In this document: positions 3,001 to 30,000 of the stretch, one piece after another
How positions within the stretch are numbered: the first letter of the stretch is position 1
Layout of the letters: each line of letters begins with the position of its first letter
NCBI GenBank assembly: GCA_026770705.1
Contig: JANJGN010000030.1
Coordinates: 24,738,001 to 24,802,000 of the forward strand
DNA from: Isurus oxyrinchus
Taxonomy: Eukaryota
Length of the DNA: 64,000 nt
Reading direction: 5' to 3'
Position numbers: made by a program

Positions 3001-6000
3001 CACGCACACCCTCACATCCCCATCAGGCTCGTACCCTCTGGAACTCACATCCTCATCCTGTCCATGGCTCCGCTCACCACACAAACATTCCACTCAGTGC
3101 CCTGTGTCCTGCTCACACTCTCTTCATCTGTTTCCATGCAGGAGAAGCTGGCTCACATCGGCAAGAAGAGGCCCCAGATCAAGGGTGGAGAGGCCCACAT
3201 TAGGCCCCTCACTCACTTTGAGGAGCGTGCCATTGCACTGACTGGTGCGGACATGGACCATGCCTGGGGGGGTGGGGTGATGGTTGTGGGGATTCCTTGA
3301 CAACATCCCTCTCTCAATGCAACTGTGAGTGCTCTCTCTCTCTCTCCTGCTTTTGACTCTGCTGCCGGGCCCTACTTATCTCTACTTTGGTTCACAGGGA
3401 GCTCTGCTAAGTGACCAACACCCTCAGCCAGCCAGTCCCTCAGCTCCATCCATGTCCTCACCACCAGCCAAGAGGACACTTCCTCCATTGAAAAGCTGGA
3501 AATAAGCAGCCTGGAAGACCCATCACAGCGCTTACCCACACCCTCCACCAGCGCAGAGACACACACCTCGGTGGGACCTAGATCTAGAACAGGCTCGAGT
3601 TCACAATCCGGTGGATACGGACACATGTCCGCAGCAGGAGGAGGCAGGTTCAGCCGAGCTCCCCAGCACTCGGAGGGCTGCTGGGGAAGAGGCGTCTGTG
3701 AGGCCCGAGTCAGGTGATGAGCCTCCAGCTCACCCTGGAGAGTCAGCAGAAGGCAGGAGAACATCACGTGGAGCTGTTGGAAACCCTCAACAGGGTGGCA
3801 CGTGAGTCGGAGGAGTGAGTCTGCCTGCTCTCTGATGAAGTGGTGCCCACATGTGCTCATATGGAGGTCTCCATGGGGAGGATGGAGCAGAATGTGGAGA
3901 TGCACACAGACCTGCACTCCATCGCGGGAGCCGTGAGTGAGTTCCTGCAATGGCGACACGAGAGGGAAATGGGGCATCTCGACACCCCCTCCAGGTGCTG
4001 CTTCCCCTCAAGGAGTCAGGCTGGGGCCCCCAGGCACCCGAAGGGAGGAGGAGTGGCAGCTGGAAATCCCTAGGTCATCCACTCAGGAATTTCAGAGGCT
4101 GTCCTTTCCCTCAAAGTCCCCTTTGCCAGTGAGACCCTCAACCTCATCCTCTGTCACTGCAGAGAGTGCAGCTGGCCAATGACTGATTCTGGAGGGAGAA
4201 GAGTGTGTGTGTGTGTGTGTGTAGCAGGGCCTTTCGGAGCCTCGGGCAAGCACTCTCCATGCACGCGGACCCTTCACTATTCACACTCACCTCAGTGTCC
4301 GGAGCATTTTCAATGCTGCCTGCTGGGGTTCACTTTCAGTTGTCCATCTGAGCTGACCTGTATCTCCTCCCACCCACTGATCACACTCCCATGCAGCACC
4401 TGATCTCGTTCACCATGACTGTCGTTCCACTTTCGATTTGAACATCATGGTCTGGATTCGCTTTTTCGTGCGGTCCTCCATCTTTTCCCCTCCCCCAGTT
4501 ACCCATTTCCTCTCCCCCATCACAATTGGCCCCCAGCTCTGGGCATCACCTTCCACCTCCCCTCCGTGACCTACCAGCCACAACCCTTTTCCTTTGGGAA
4601 TGTCCAGGTGAAAGTGAATGTTCCCTTCCTTCCCTAAAATCCCATCCCCACCCACATTCACCTTCCCGACCTTCTCCTTCCCACCCTCAAGTGTCCGTGT
4701 CTGCCCCCAAGTCCCCGCCAACCACCCTTGCCACCCCTTCTACCACTGCAGTCGAACCCTTACCCTCCCATCCTATCACCTCAATCTGCCCTCGGTCATT
4801 CTCACCAATCCCTCATACCACACCCACCCTCAATTCGCTCCCCAGAGCGTAGTCATGGACCCATGAAACCCCTCCCTGGACATCTGCCCCACCATCCCCT
4901 TCCCCCTGGAACCTCTTACCCACTCTGGTCCCTTTCCCACCCGGTTACTCTCTCCCCGTCCAGACCCCTCCCCCCCGGAATCCCTTCCCCTCCGGACCCC
5001 TTCCCCCTGGAACCCCTTCCCTCTCACTGGACTCCTTCTCCCCTTCTCCCCTTCAGACCCCTTCCCCTGGAACCTCCTCCTCTCCTTAGCCTCCCGGCCA
5101 CCATCCCCTTCCCCTGGCCCCCCACCCCCACTTAGTCCCTCCCCCTTCCTGACTCCCTCAGACACCCTTACTTCTTCTGCCACCCTTAGTCCTCCCCCCC
5201 CTCCCGACTCCCTCCTCCAGCCTTACCTCTTCCTCCAGCCTCATTTCTTCCCCCAGACTTACTCCTTGTCCCCTCCCAACTCCTTCCTCCACCCTTACTT
5301 CTTCCTCCACTCTTACTCCCTCCAGTGTCCGTACTCCTTCCTCCCCCCCCCCCCCGGACTCCCTCCCCTCTCCACACTCCTTCCCCCTTCCCCGGACTCC
5401 CTCCCCTCTTCGTACTCCTTCTTCTCCCTAGACTCCCTCACCTCTCTGCACTCCTTCCCCGCTCCGAACTCCTTCTGTAATACCTTCCACTCCGCTAACA
5501 CTTACCTCTCCAGTGGCCATCTTCTCTTCTGTTACCCTGTCCTCCCCCGTATTTCCAGTTACCCACGTTGGTGTGGGCCCTAGGGTCACATGTAGGCCGG
5601 AACAAATGGCAGATTTATTTCCCTAAAGGACATTAGCGACCCTGTTGAGTAGTTTGATGGGTCTGTTGATAATTAAATAGCTCATTCACATCTGCCATGG
5701 GGGCCCATGTGTTAGTGATATTTCTACTCAATGATACACAGTAATTATCACCTCCCCAACTGAGTTTATTGTAAATGTTTTCTATTAATATATAACATGC
5801 AATTACACACACTTTCACCGCTCATTATGAAGAAGATACAATTAATTACAGACTATTATTCATACATGGGGTGAGACCAGCACACGCTACCTGTTGCACT
5901 ATCTATGGCCACCCTCCAGGATTCTCTCTCAACTACATACTTGGCGTCTGTTAAATATTGCCAATGAGCAACTGTCTGAAAAAGAATCTACAAATAATTC

Positions 6001-27000: not shown

Positions 27001-30000
27001 GAACCCACCCAGAAGCTGGAAAGGTAGAACAGACGTATTAAGTGAATAGAATTCAAATTTGAGTGAAAGGTTTTACATAAATGAAAAAGCTGATTCTCCC
27101 CCGATTGGTCAAAAAGATCGAGCGAGTCAAAAAGACTGAGATGTTTTTACTGTTATAAAGTCAGACATTTAAAGGCAAATTGTTGGAAGTTAAACTGGTG
27201 GCAGCACAAAATTGCATGAATCGATATTGAAAGATGGACTCACTCAGAGAATGCAGGTATTGACAATACGTCATGCGTGTGCATTATAGGAATCATTTCT
27301 GAGGCTCGAGTGAAGCTACCTTGGCCTGGATTTTGGGTTCTAAGGGCAGCTTACTCCCAATTAGTGAGAAATAGGCTTTGCACAAAGGAGGTGATATTAG
27401 GACAGGTGATGGGAAACTTGGCCAATGAGCTAGGCTTTAAGGAGGATGGACCAAATGGCCTCCTTTTTTGCTGTAACGACTCTATGTGGAGAGGTTAAGG
27501 AGGGGAATCCCAGAGCTTACAGCTTAAATGACTGAAGCCACAGGCAGCAAGGGTGGAACGAAAGAAATGGTGGACCATAAGTTGCCAGTCACTGAGACAG
27601 AAAATAGAGACAGGTTCAACAGACATCCAAGTACGTTATGTAGAAAGAGGGGGGGGTGGAGAGATACAGAAAGGAGCTGAGAACCAGTGTTTGAAATCAG
27701 TCAAAGAAAGATGGATCCAATGGCCAAGGTTGGAGAAACGAAGGCGGAAACGTTGACAAATTTCTAGCCGAATTTCCCTGCACCTGAGTTTGGGGAGACG
27801 ATGTTGAAATGTCACGGGACTAGTAATCCAGAGGCCCGGACTAGTGCTGTGGGGACATGGGTTCAAATCCCTCCACAACATCTGGTGGAATTTACATTCA
27901 GTTAATAAATCTTGAATTGAAAGCCAGTCTCAGTGATGGGGTGACCCCATGACACGTAGACCATCTGTTGTTAAAAACCCACCTGGTTCACTAATGCCCT
28001 TTAGGGAAGGAAATCTGCCATCCTTACCTGGTTTGGACTGCACGTGACTCCAGACCCCCACACCAATGTGGATGGCGCTTAACTGCTCTCTGAAATGTCT
28101 TACCAAGCCACTAGGTCAAGGGTAATTAGGGATGCTGGTCTTGCCAGCAATGTCCACATCCCATGAAAGAATAGAGAAAAAAAGAATCACATCACTGTTT
28201 GCTAGTACAACACTTGAGTATTGCTGGAAAGGGAGACATGTAGAAGCTTTTCGTCTTGCACTCATCAGGGCCAATATCAATATAAGGGGGAAACAACAAT
28301 TTATACTGTATGTGAAGAGTGCTGATTAGTTGGCAAGTGGACTCTGATTGGAAGAGGTGTTGCCATGGAGAATTCATGATGGTGATGGTGACTGACAGTT
28401 AACTGCCCAGCATTGTTTGGAAGTTAAACCAGTATAAATTGTTGTTTTCCCCTTTTTTTAAGTGCCCTGATGAGTGCAAGACGAAAAGCTTTGACATGTC
28501 TCTTTTTTCAGCAACACTCAAAAAGAATCACGGTGGGTGGGGACCTTTTGTCACATTTGCCCTGCAGAAATGTGCAAAATGGGTGGAAATTTGGTGTAAG
28601 GTGATCTCTGCCTGATGGTGCGATCCAATTTGCGGAAATCAATTTGGGCATCAGTAACCCTGCTCTGTAGCGTAAGTCGAAATTTGTTCTGCAGCAGGAA
28701 CCTAACCTGGACATGACTGCTGTGTGCAAAAGGGAGAGCAGTCTTTACCCTGCACAAACATCCCTTAGCCTAACGACTGCTTAGCATCATTGAACTTTAG
28801 AAGCCATCAAAGTGAGTCGATAAAGCCACTTAATACCCGTGGAAGGAGACGGACTTTTTCTTCTTGGTGAAGAGCCATTTTTTCTCTTTCTTCGTGTGCT
28901 CGAGGTTGATGCCTGACATGTCTCCTTTGCATCTGATCTGCTCCTGACTGGTGTTCCGGTGCTGGCTCAGCTCGTCGGACTGCCAGATTGTTTTGAAGAC
29001 AATCTCCGTCATTCTTCGAGGCCTCACTGTCTCGATGCTGGAGTGAGAGGGTGAGGAAGTGGCTGGCGGGGCAAGGCAGCGAGTTGGGATGGGTGTGGCC
29101 AGGAAAGAGATCCACTCAACTTAATCAGTGGGTTAACTCGCCTCACATTTTCTTTACTTGCTCTGGTAAGGAACGCCTCCATCAACGGCCCAGGAGAATT
29201 CCTTTCTCACAGGAAGAGAAACAACACAGAGAACAATGGGTCATGATAGCAGAAGCAAATCTCATAACAGTGGAAAGAACATAGAGATTGAAGTTCCATA
29301 ACAGCCGAGAGAATGCAGGAAGTGACGCATCACAATAGCATAAAGAACACAGGAAGTGATGCGTCACAATAGCATAAAGAACACAGGAAGTGATGCATCA
29401 CAATAGCCTAAAGAACACAGGAAGTGATGCGTCACAATAGCATAAAGAACACAGGAAGTGATGCATCACAATAGCATAAAGAACACAGGAAGTGATGTGT
29501 CACAATAGCGTAAAGAACACAGGAAGTGATGCATCACAATAGCGTAAAGAACACAGGAAGTGACGCGTCACAATAGTGTAAAGAACACAGGAAATGAGGT
29601 GTCTAGGGAGGCCAGACATCTGTTTTTTTTTAGTGGACAGTCCAGCTTTAACCTGAACTGCCACTATCCAACAAAAGGCTAGTATGCAGGAACAGCAGGC
29701 AATTAGGAAAGCTAATAGAATGTCATCATTTATTATGAGGGAAATTGATTACGAGAGTACGGAAGTTATGCTCCAGTTGTACAGGGCACTGGTGAGACCA
29801 CATCTGGAGTACTGTGTACAGTCCTGGTCTCCTTATTTAAAGAGAGATGTAAATGCATTAGAGGCAGTTCAGAGATTCACTAGACTAATACCAGGAATGG
29901 GAGGGTTTTTTTCATTCATTCATTCATGGGATGTGGTCCTTGCTAGCCAGGCCAGCGTTTATTGTCTTTGAGGAAAGGCTGGACAGGTTAGGTTTGTATC

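What the first reader, a model, noticed from the sequence alone, without database searches (positions are those of the whole stretch)
5951..29182. Complete unannotated-looking ~465-aa coiled-coil gene directly downstream of TRPM4
Seen: 11 minus-strand exons (29142-29182, 28837-29037, 24788-25004, 23330-23407, 20330-20413, 19678-19749, 16774-17051, 15278-15472, 12788-12853, 7364-7504, 5951-5975) join with consistent phases into one stop-free frame (1398 nt), followed by AATAAA at 5765. The protein has a basic N-terminus, a Ser-rich disordered segment and several heptad-like helices. Most exons are invisible or mis-framed in the ORF track. I recognise no family; it may be a fast-evolving or chondrichthyan-restricted gene (inference).
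Basis: partly seen in the sequence, partly recalled or inferred. Interest (0 to 1): 0.7.

Follow-up and report, generated by a model that had tools for sequence, protein, structure and literature searches.

The report
Fish counterpart of testis gene TSKS
The eleven-exon gene is really there, but one exon identifies it as a relative of TSKS, a known scaffold protein of developing sperm, so it is an ordinary gene and not an orphan.

Summary
All 11 minus-strand exons are stop-free in the phase set by cumulative length. They total 1398 nt, start at an ATG and end at TAA, and an AATAAA lies about 180 nt further on. Splice sites are good apart from a GC donor after exon 1 and a weak donor after exon 2.

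"No family" does not hold. Searched exon by exon, exon 8 alone matches Pfam PF15358, TSKS (testis-specific serine kinase substrate), at E=3.7e-9 and 36.4 bits against a cut-off of 27. None of 298 other open segments on that strand matches it. Mouse Tsks also has 11 coding exons. Human TSKS and TRPM4 both lie in 19q13.33. Exon 2 carries a PP1-docking-like KSVSF motif near where mouse TSKS has its own.

Weak points:
- Only 55 of 395 profile positions are matched.
- About 76 residues follow exon 8, where the profile has 198 more positions, so "complete" is unproven.
- The channel neighbour is TRPM4/5-clade, probably TRPM4.
- The exons were never joined, and no vertebrate sequences were available, so orthology, expression and taxon stay untested.

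Verdict: a new member of a known kind, of low interest.

The parts
29142..29182 (-). Exon 1 (41 nt) with the proposed ATG at 29180-29182. It is the least secure exon.
   Evidence: stop-free, donor GC (gcgagt). T at -3 of the ATG. Read by eye: a GT donor 5 nt upstream would put a stop at the start of exon 3.
28837..29037 (-). Exon 2 (201 nt), the basic N-terminal segment. An in-frame ATG at 29010-29012 is an alternative start.
   Evidence: pI 10.0; A at -3 of the inner ATG; acceptor pyrimidine tract 0.85; donor weak (72nd percentile); the exon is open in two frames.
28842..28856 (-). KSVSF, a PP1-docking-like (RVxF-type) motif at the end of exon 2. It falls at model residues 75-79, or 53-57 counted from the inner ATG.
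   Evidence: the only match to the pattern in all 11 exons (the pattern itself is recalled); mouse TSKS has its RVxF motif at residues 51-55 (passage of PMC9073834).
24788..25004 (-). Exon 3 (217 nt), the Ser-rich acidic segment.
   Evidence: 13 Ser of 72, pI 4.9; good splice sites; no Pfam or PDB match.
23330..23407 (-). Exon 4 (78 nt).
   Evidence: no Pfam match.
20330..20413 (-). Exon 5 (84 nt).
   Evidence: acceptor tract only at the 70th percentile; no Pfam match.
19678..19749 (-). Exon 6 (72 nt).
   Evidence: no Pfam match.
16774..17051 (-). Exon 7 (278 nt): two predicted helices with low-confidence linkers.
   Evidence: helices 2-22 and 38-68, mean pLDDT 75.9; no Pfam or PDB match.
15278..15472 (-). 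Exon 8 (195 nt): one long helix, and the only exon that carries the TSKS family signature.
   Evidence: PF15358 TSKS, E=3.7e-9, 36.4 bits (cut-off 27); helix 3-63, pLDDT 93.7; no PDB relative.
15283..15447 (-). The stretch of exon 8 (exon residues 9-63) that matches TSKS profile positions 143-197 of 395.
   Evidence: the same hit when the exon or its open segment was scanned among 150 segments.
12788..12853 (-). Exon 9 (66 nt).
   Evidence: no Pfam match.
7364..7504 (-). Exon 10 (141 nt), a helical-looking segment.
   Evidence: only chance-level coiled-coil hits in the PDB (best E 0.32); no Pfam match.
5951..5975 (-). Exon 11 (25 nt) with the TAA stop at 5951-5953.
   Evidence: Its translation is under the 20-residue minimum of the search tools.
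5765..5770 (-). AATAAA polyadenylation-signal-like hexamer about 180 nt after the stop.
   Evidence: sequence printed.
39114..39356 (-). Last coding exon (C-terminal coiled coil plus stop) of the upstream TRPM4/5-clade channel gene.
   Evidence: 7 of 7 PDB hits at E<=1 are TRPM4 chains (best E 0.048), aligned to residues 1153-1188 of 1214-1254.

Best explanation
The locus is a protein-coding gene of the TSKS family (testis-specific serine kinase substrate). It is most likely the counterpart, in a non-mammalian vertebrate, of mammalian TSKS. It lies 9.9 kb downstream of a TRPM4/5-type channel gene on the same strand.

Shown here:
- The exon chain is intact.
- Exon 8 carries the family signature.
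- The protein has a basic N-terminal part with a KSVSF motif, a Ser-rich part, and long helices.

Inferred from mouse work: the protein acts in spermatids as a phosphorylation-switched scaffold. A PP1-type phosphatase docks on the N-terminal motif, and a basophilic TSSK-like kinase phosphorylates the protein. The helices self-associate, and the unphosphorylated form condenses into membraneless nuage that helps remove spermatid cytoplasm. The phosphorylated form stays dispersed.

It is uncertain at exon 1 and at the 3' end.
For: Family signature:
- Exon 8 alone matches PF15358 TSKS at E=3.7e-9, 36.4 bits against a curated cut-off of 27. The next family (WXG100) is at E=0.018.
- The hit is specific: 1 of 150 and 1 of 150 minus-strand open segments match TSKS at E<=1, each time the exon 8 segment.
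- TSKS does not appear among the 150 flank and plus-strand segments scanned at E<=0.01.

Gene structure and position:
- Mouse Tsks has exons 1 to 11, described as all of its coding exons, within 14.8 kb (passage of PMC10242716). The model here has 11 coding exons over 23.2 kb.
- Human TSKS (chr19 about 49.74 Mb) and TRPM4 (about 49.16 Mb) both lie in 19q13.33 (table row of PMC13184285). Here the two gene types are adjacent.
- Splice sites are good and no exon is repeat-derived.

Motif: mouse TSKS binds PPP1CC2 through an RVxF motif at residues 51-55 (passage of PMC9073834). The only RVxF-like match in all the exons is KSVSF at model residues 75-79, or 53-57 from the inner ATG.

Structure: exon 8 folds as one confident 61-residue helix, and exon 7 as two helices.

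Mechanism in mouse (passages of PMC10242716):
- TSKS alone forms nuage-like droplets in cultured cells.
- TSSK1/2 co-expression disperses it, and PPP1CC2 restores the droplets.
- Tsks knockout males are sterile with retained cytoplasm.
Against: - Only 55 of 395 profile positions are matched. The other 8 exons searched give no Pfam family even at E<=10.
- No other open segment of 24 residues or more between 4073 and 15261 matches the profile's C-terminal 198 positions. The model has only about 76 residues after exon 8. Either the 3' end is wrong or incomplete, or the C-terminal part is absent or too diverged.
- The RVxF-type pattern is short. By my own rough estimate, about 0.6 matches are expected by chance in 465 residues.
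- Exon 1 needs a GC donor and its ATG has a poor context. The exon 2 donor is weak.
- Three of five channel exons score higher with TRPM5 than with TRPM4 chains. This weakens the synteny argument.
- There is no expression data, no orthologue alignment and no evidence of taxon. The exons were not joined, so the family profile was never tested against the whole protein.
- Reviews place the origin of TSSK1/2 in mammals (passages). The eponymous kinases may therefore not exist in this species.
Confidence: 0.8

Rival explanations
1. The gene is a TSKS-family paralogue, an ohnologue from the vertebrate genome duplications that sits beside a TRPM5-type gene. It would then not be the one-to-one orthologue of mammalian TSKS, and tetrapods would have lost this copy.
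For: The S1, pore and TRP-domain exons of the neighbouring channel score 15, 12 and 8 bits higher with TRPM5 than with TRPM4 chains. The protein is shorter than the family profile suggests, and 8 of 9 exons are unrecognisable.
Against: The two paralogue-specific C-terminal channel exons favour TRPM4, one by 10 bits and one with TRPM4-only hits (7 of 7). The channel protein ends where 1214-residue TRPM4 chains end. In the TRP exon TRPM2 scores as high as TRPM4. Solved mammalian TRPM4 therefore looks divergent in the core, which makes the core comparison a poor guide. Human TSKS is linked to TRPM4.
Confidence: 0.12
2. A TSKS-family gene is present, but the reader's model is wrong in part. Either the first exon or start codon is wrong, or 3' exons are missing or misplaced, so the 465-residue protein is not the real product. 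Alternatively the locus is a decaying, unexpressed copy.
For: GC donor and weak start context at exon 1, and a better-context in-frame ATG inside exon 2. Weak exon 2 donor. Profile positions 198-395 are unmatched, and only about 76 residues follow exon 8. Exons 9 and 11 are very short (66 and 25 nt).
Against: All phases close without a stop over 11 exons. Acceptors and most donors are strong. The AATAAA follows the stop at a normal distance. The exon count equals that of mouse. No alternative open segment carries a TSKS signal.
Confidence: 0.35
3. There is no real gene. On this reading the exon chain is a chance product of choosing among many GT/AG sites, and the Pfam hit is a spurious coiled-coil match.
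For: A stop-free spliced chain can often be assembled from 23 kb when sites are chosen freely, and I computed no null for this. Coiled-coil profiles can cross-match on composition. The protein-atlas control with exon 8 returned only bacterial coiled-coil clusters (best score 0.84).
Against: The hit has E=3.7e-9 to a single family, 7 orders of magnitude better than the next one. None of 298 other open segments from the same strand and region hits that family. The match fills the exon almost exactly between its AG and GT (residues 9-63 of 64). The named family is one whose human member lies in the same chromosome band as TRPM4.
Confidence: 0.04
4. One reading: a lineage-restricted orphan coiled-coil gene with no family.
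For: Eight of 9 exons have no Pfam family. The five longest exons have no PDB relative.
Against: Exon 8 passes the curated TSKS cut-off. Tsks is reported as annotated in lizard and coelacanth.
Confidence: 0.04

Closest known systems
Mammalian TSKS (testis-specific serine kinase substrate; Pfam PF15358)
   Same: The family signature in the central helix. Eleven coding exons. Linkage to a TRPM4-type gene. An N-terminal RVxF-like motif at a similar distance from the start. A helical architecture.
   Different: Only one exon is recognisable. The model is 465 residues, and about 76 residues follow the conserved helix where the profile has 198 more positions. The two genes are 9.9 kb apart here, against about 0.58 Mb in human. 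The partner kinases TSSK1/2 are described as mammalian innovations. Expression and binding were not tested.
Tsks as annotated in anole lizard and coelacanth
   Same: These are non-mammalian vertebrate members of the same family in the same conserved gene neighbourhood, beside Cpt1c (passage of PMC4589379).
   Different: No Cpt1-type domain was found in the 6 kb downstream of this gene. That paper does not report Tsks beside Cpt1c in the elephant shark. No sequences of these genes were available to me for comparison.
KASH5 / CCDC155, the other coiled-coil gene that I recall lying near human TRPM4 (a recalled lead, from no call)
   Same: It is a coiled-coil, germline-expressed protein from the same human chromosome band, as I recall it.
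   Different: No exon or open segment gave an EF-hand or KASH family match. The model ends without a hydrophobic tail. Rejected.

Membership tests
TSKS (Pfam PF15358) | Sequence match to the family profile above its curated cut-off | tested here: met
   Exon 8 alone scores 36.4 bits against a cut-off of 27, E=3.7e-9. Its open segment gives E=2e-9.
TSKS (Pfam PF15358) | Match along most of the profile length | tested here: not met
   Only positions 143-197 of 395 are matched. The 8 other exons have no family at E<=10, and 298 other open segments show no TSKS hit at E<=1. The test was exon by exon only, which is weak for short diverged exons. The joined protein was not searched.
TSKS (Pfam PF15358) | Gene structure of 11 coding exons | tested here: met
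   11 exons here. Mouse exons 1 to 11 are all of its coding exons (PMC10242716 passage). Only the count was compared; boundaries and phases of the mouse gene were not available.
TSKS (Pfam PF15358) | Conserved neighbourhood (TRPM4 / 19q13.33 gene group) | tested here: inconclusive
   Human TSKS and TRPM4 are both in 19q13.33. The neighbour here is TRPM4/5-clade: two C-terminal exons favour TRPM4 and three core exons favour TRPM5.
TSKS (Pfam PF15358) | N-terminal RVxF motif that docks PPP1CC2 | tested here: inconclusive
   There is one RVxF-like match, KSVSF, at residues 75-79, or 53-57 from the inner ATG. In mouse it is at 51-55. The motif is short enough to occur by chance, and binding was not tested.
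TSKS (Pfam PF15358) | Post-meiotic, testis-restricted expression | not testable with these tools
   No expression data were available.
TSKS (Pfam PF15358) | Phosphorylation by and binding to TSSK1/TSSK2; nuage formation | not testable with these tools
   Known from mouse and human only.
TRPM4 (identity of the upstream neighbour) | Closer to TRPM4 than to TRPM5 across its exons | tested here: inconclusive
   Best bits, TRPM5 against TRPM4: S1 exon 85.9 / 70.9; pore exon 94.5 / 82.1; TRP exon 75.0 / 66.6; post-TRP helix exon 24.3 / 34.6; C-terminal exon none / 17.4. No fish TRPM4 is among the solved chains, so the comparison is uneven.

The most novel reading that the evidence does not exclude
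That would place the origin of TSKS before the split of cartilaginous and bony vertebrates, and long before TSSK1/2, the kinases it is named after, which reviews date to mammals. The conserved core would then be one central helix plus a PP1-docking N-terminus. This would point to an ancestral role as a phosphatase-controlled condensate scaffold served by a different kinase. A bolder variant is that it is a second TSKS-type ohnologue beside a TRPM5-type gene, lost in tetrapods.
Probability: 0.3. Interest if true: 0.35.

Novelty: new member of a known kind. Interest (0 to 1): 0.2.

Why it matters
The finding loses its main attraction, an orphan gene. What remains is modest.

It is a diverged, non-mammalian TSKS in which only one helix, and perhaps the phosphatase-docking motif, is recognisable. 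That marks which parts of this sperm-development scaffold are old and probably essential.

It would also show the substrate existing in a lineage where its named kinases are said to be absent. Lizard and coelacanth annotations already imply the same.

For annotation, it shows that a fast-evolving gene can be named from a single exon plus synteny.

Tried and rejected
I switched to stop-free open segments given by reference.
2. A search for more TSKS-like coding pieces scanned 150 + 150 minus-strand open segments. Nothing beyond exon 8 turned up.
3. A scan for a neighbouring gene used 10 chosen segments and 150 flank and plus-strand segments. It gave only chance-level hits, the best being DUF4381 at 1.4e-4 in one of the segments; the scan does not name which.
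4. A PDB sequence search of the five longest exons found no relative.
5. A protein-atlas control with exon 8 returned only bacterial coiled-coil clusters (best 0.84) and no TSKS cluster. I judged the atlas uninformative and left the second call unused.
6. An Rfam scan of the whole window at gathering thresholds gave 0 matches.
7. Fold search of the single-helix exon models was not run, because one helix matches any helix.
8. KASH5/CCDC155 (a recalled lead) was rejected, as there are no EF-hand or KASH matches.
9. An alternative GT donor 5 nt inside exon 1 was rejected because it puts a stop at the start of exon 3 (read).
10. Two TSKS papers (PMC4866589, PMC2670488) are not held.
11. The bacterial and archaeal genome collection and the phage, plasmid and E. 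coli collections were not used, since they cannot hold a vertebrate gene.

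
Full report
**What was checked first**

The window is 64,000 bases, 46.6% G+C, CpG observed/expected 0.34, with a single N run near its start that I left alone.

One search examined each of the eleven proposed minus-strand exons on its own.
- The lengths sum to 1398 nt.
- Each exon is free of stops in the phase set by the lengths before it.
- The first exon opens with ATG and the last closes with TAA at 5951-5953.
- AATAAA lies at 5765-5770.
- Nine introns are GT-AG and intron 1 is GC-AG.
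- The six codons split by introns were read by eye from the printed exon ends, and none is a stop.

All searches were exon by exon.

**Quality of the model**

The donor matrix is a consensus that I recalled, so its scores are approximate.
- 8 of 9 GT donors fall at or above the 93rd percentile of the 1344 GT sites on that strand between 5000 and 30000. The exon 2 donor is weak (72nd percentile).
- The GC donor of exon 1 has the best flanking score of all.
- All 10 acceptors have a pyrimidine at -3. Eight of 10 have pyrimidine tracts at or above the 88th percentile of 1855 AG sites.
I did not compute how often such a chain arises by chance.
- None of the 11 exons has a second copy in the window, so they are not transposon pieces.

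The protein description holds.
- Exon 2 is basic (pI 10.0) and exon 3 is 18% serine.
- Heptad periodicity is modest. The observed score was reached by 14, 28 and 36 of 300 shuffles for exons 8, 7 and 10, and is not distinguishable for the rest.
- Single-exon AlphaFold2 runs give one confident 61-residue helix for exon 8 (mean pLDDT 93.7). Exon 7 gives two helices with low-confidence linkers (mean pLDDT 75.9).

**What it is**

The nine exons long enough to search were scanned against Pfam. Eight gave nothing even at E<=10.

Exon 8 matched PF15358, TSKS (testis-specific serine kinase substrate), at E=3.7e-9 and 36.4 bits against a curated cut-off of 27. Exon residues 9-63 cover profile positions 143-197 of 395. 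The next family was at E=0.018.

To test specificity and look for further pieces, I scanned two sets of 150 stop-free open segments of the minus strand:
- segments of 24 residues or more between 4073 and 15471;
- segments of 29 residues or more between 15277 and 29465.

In each set exactly one member, the exon 8 segment, matched TSKS at E<=1. The match is therefore specific, but it is the only one.

No solved structure is related to exons 2, 3, 7, 8 or 10. The best E-values were 0.32 to 3.3, all chance coiled coils or unrelated proteins, and exons 2 and 3 had no hit at all.

**Independent support from the literature**

I saw passages found by term search, not whole papers.
- Mouse Tsks has exons 1 to 11, described as all the coding exons, within a 14.8 kb deletion (PMC10242716). 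The model here also has 11 coding exons.
- A table row in PMC13184285 places human TSKS at about 49.74 Mb and TRPM4 at about 49.16 Mb, both in 19q13.33. The adjacency here fits a conserved neighbourhood.
- PMC9073834 states that mouse TSKS bridges PPP1CC2 and TSSK1 through an RVxF motif at residues 51-55. The only RVxF-like match in all eleven exons is KSVSF at the end of exon 2. That is residues 75-79 of the model, or 53-57 counted from an in-frame ATG inside exon 2 with a better context. The motif pattern is recalled and is short enough to occur by chance, so this is a lead and not a test.
- PMC4589379 reports Tsks flanking Cpt1c in anole and coelacanth. The family is therefore already known outside mammals. 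It does not report Tsks beside Cpt1c in the elephant shark.
- A search for TSKS with 'shark' found only that paper (1 of 1). The six papers listed for TSKS with 'zebrafish' and 'testis' I saw as a listing only, and none by its title concerns a fish TSKS.

**The neighbour**

Five exons of the upstream minus-strand gene were compared with solved chains.

| Exon | Best TRPM5 bits | Best TRPM4 bits |
|---|---|---|
| S1 | 85.9 | 70.9 |
| Pore | 94.5 | 82.1 |
| TRP domain | 75.0 | 66.6 |
| Post-TRP helix | 24.3 | 34.6 |
| C-terminal coiled coil | none | 17.4 |

- The three conserved core exons favour TRPM5 by 15, 12 and 8 bits.
- The two C-terminal, paralogue-specific exons favour TRPM4. For the last exon, 7 of 7 hits at E<=1 are TRPM4 chains (best E 0.048).
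- That last alignment ends where 1214-residue TRPM4 chains end.
- In the TRP exon TRPM2 scores as high as TRPM4. This suggests the solved mammalian TRPM4 chains are divergent in the core.

I call the neighbour TRPM4/5-clade, probably TRPM4. Its stop is at 39114, 9.9 kb from the ATG of the TSKS-like gene. No credible Pfam family lies between them or on the plus strand.

I do not take the contig for human. In human the two genes are about 0.58 Mb apart, and the exons match mammalian chains and the TSKS profile only partially.

**What does not fit**

- The profile has 198 positions after the part matched by exon 8, but the model has only about 76 residues there. Nothing else downstream matches. 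The 3' end may be incomplete or wrong, or this lineage's protein is shorter or too diverged there. 'Complete' is therefore unproven.
- Exon 1 depends on a GC donor and an ATG with T at -3. A GT donor 5 nt upstream would run into a stop at the start of exon 3. The true start may be the ATG in exon 2.
- Reviews date TSSK1/2 to the mammalian ancestor and the TSSK family to amniotes or amphibians (passages). One of them also cites invertebrate TSSK homologues. The partner kinase in this species is therefore open.

**How it most likely works (inference from mouse)**

- In cultured cells TSKS alone forms membraneless, nuage-like droplets.
- Co-expressed TSSK1/2 phosphorylate and disperse it, and PPP1CC2 reverses this.
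- Knockout males lack two spermatid nuage bodies, retain cytoplasm and are sterile (PMC10242716).

The protein here has the matching layout: a basic N-terminus with a phosphatase-docking-like motif, a serine-rich segment and long helices. I therefore propose the same phosphorylation-switched scaffold role in spermatids.

**What stayed unchecked**

- The remaining genome collection holds only bacteria and archaea.
- The protein atlas failed its positive control.
- Supplements were closed. The supplementary figures of PMC10242716 (expression) and PMC4589379 (flanking-gene trees) might bear on tissue specificity and on TSKS in cartilaginous fishes.
- Taxon, annotation status, expression, orthology and selection are all untested.

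**Verdict**

This is a real-looking gene, correctly spotted, but a member of a known family and not an orphan. It is a new member of a known kind, of low interest.

Noticed in passing
window 29316-29597: A 34-bp tandem repeat (8.3 copies, 93% matches) ends 134 bp upstream of the proposed ATG, where a promoter would be expected.
   Followed up: no
window 9248-9995, 16077-16381, 24376-24681: G+C-rich minisatellites lie inside introns 9, 7 and 3: 28 bp x 26.7 copies, 28 bp x 11.1 and 56 bp x 5.5. They create long low-complexity open frames on both strands.
   Followed up: partly
window 2001-6000: A G+C-rich block (0.54-0.56, strong C-over-G skew at 4001-6000) lies downstream of the gene. It has long open frames on both strands, for example 3375-4007 minus (211 aa) and 2573-3238 plus. 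It also has Pro-rich low-complexity frames and short tandem repeats at 4953-5465. No credible Pfam family was found.
   Followed up: partly
window 7770-8311 (-), 14218-14950 (+), 29684-30305 (+), 41811-42590 (-), 54262-54669 (+), 60611-61090 (-): Recurrent open frames share similar peptide runs and look like C-terminal fragments of a retrotransposon ORF2. They are scattered through the introns and flanks of both genes. The identification is by eye only; no Pfam family was reported for them.
   Followed up: no
window 50536-51983: A long array of near-identical open frames with strong C-over-G skew (-0.55) lies inside an intron of the channel gene. A CA/TG-rich low-complexity stretch sits next to it at about 49670-50030.
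   Followed up: no
window 28810-29120: Exon 2 is open in two frames on the minus strand, 96 and 102 codons. This is why an ORF track shows it mis-framed.
   Followed up: yes
window 1498-2157: Tandem repeats with 40/85/174-bp periods lie near the window start, beyond the N run.
   Followed up: no
window 39114-64000 (-): The conserved core exons of the neighbouring channel look more like solved TRPM5 than TRPM4, while its C-terminal exons look like TRPM4. Its paralogue assignment needs a proper tree.
   Followed up: partly
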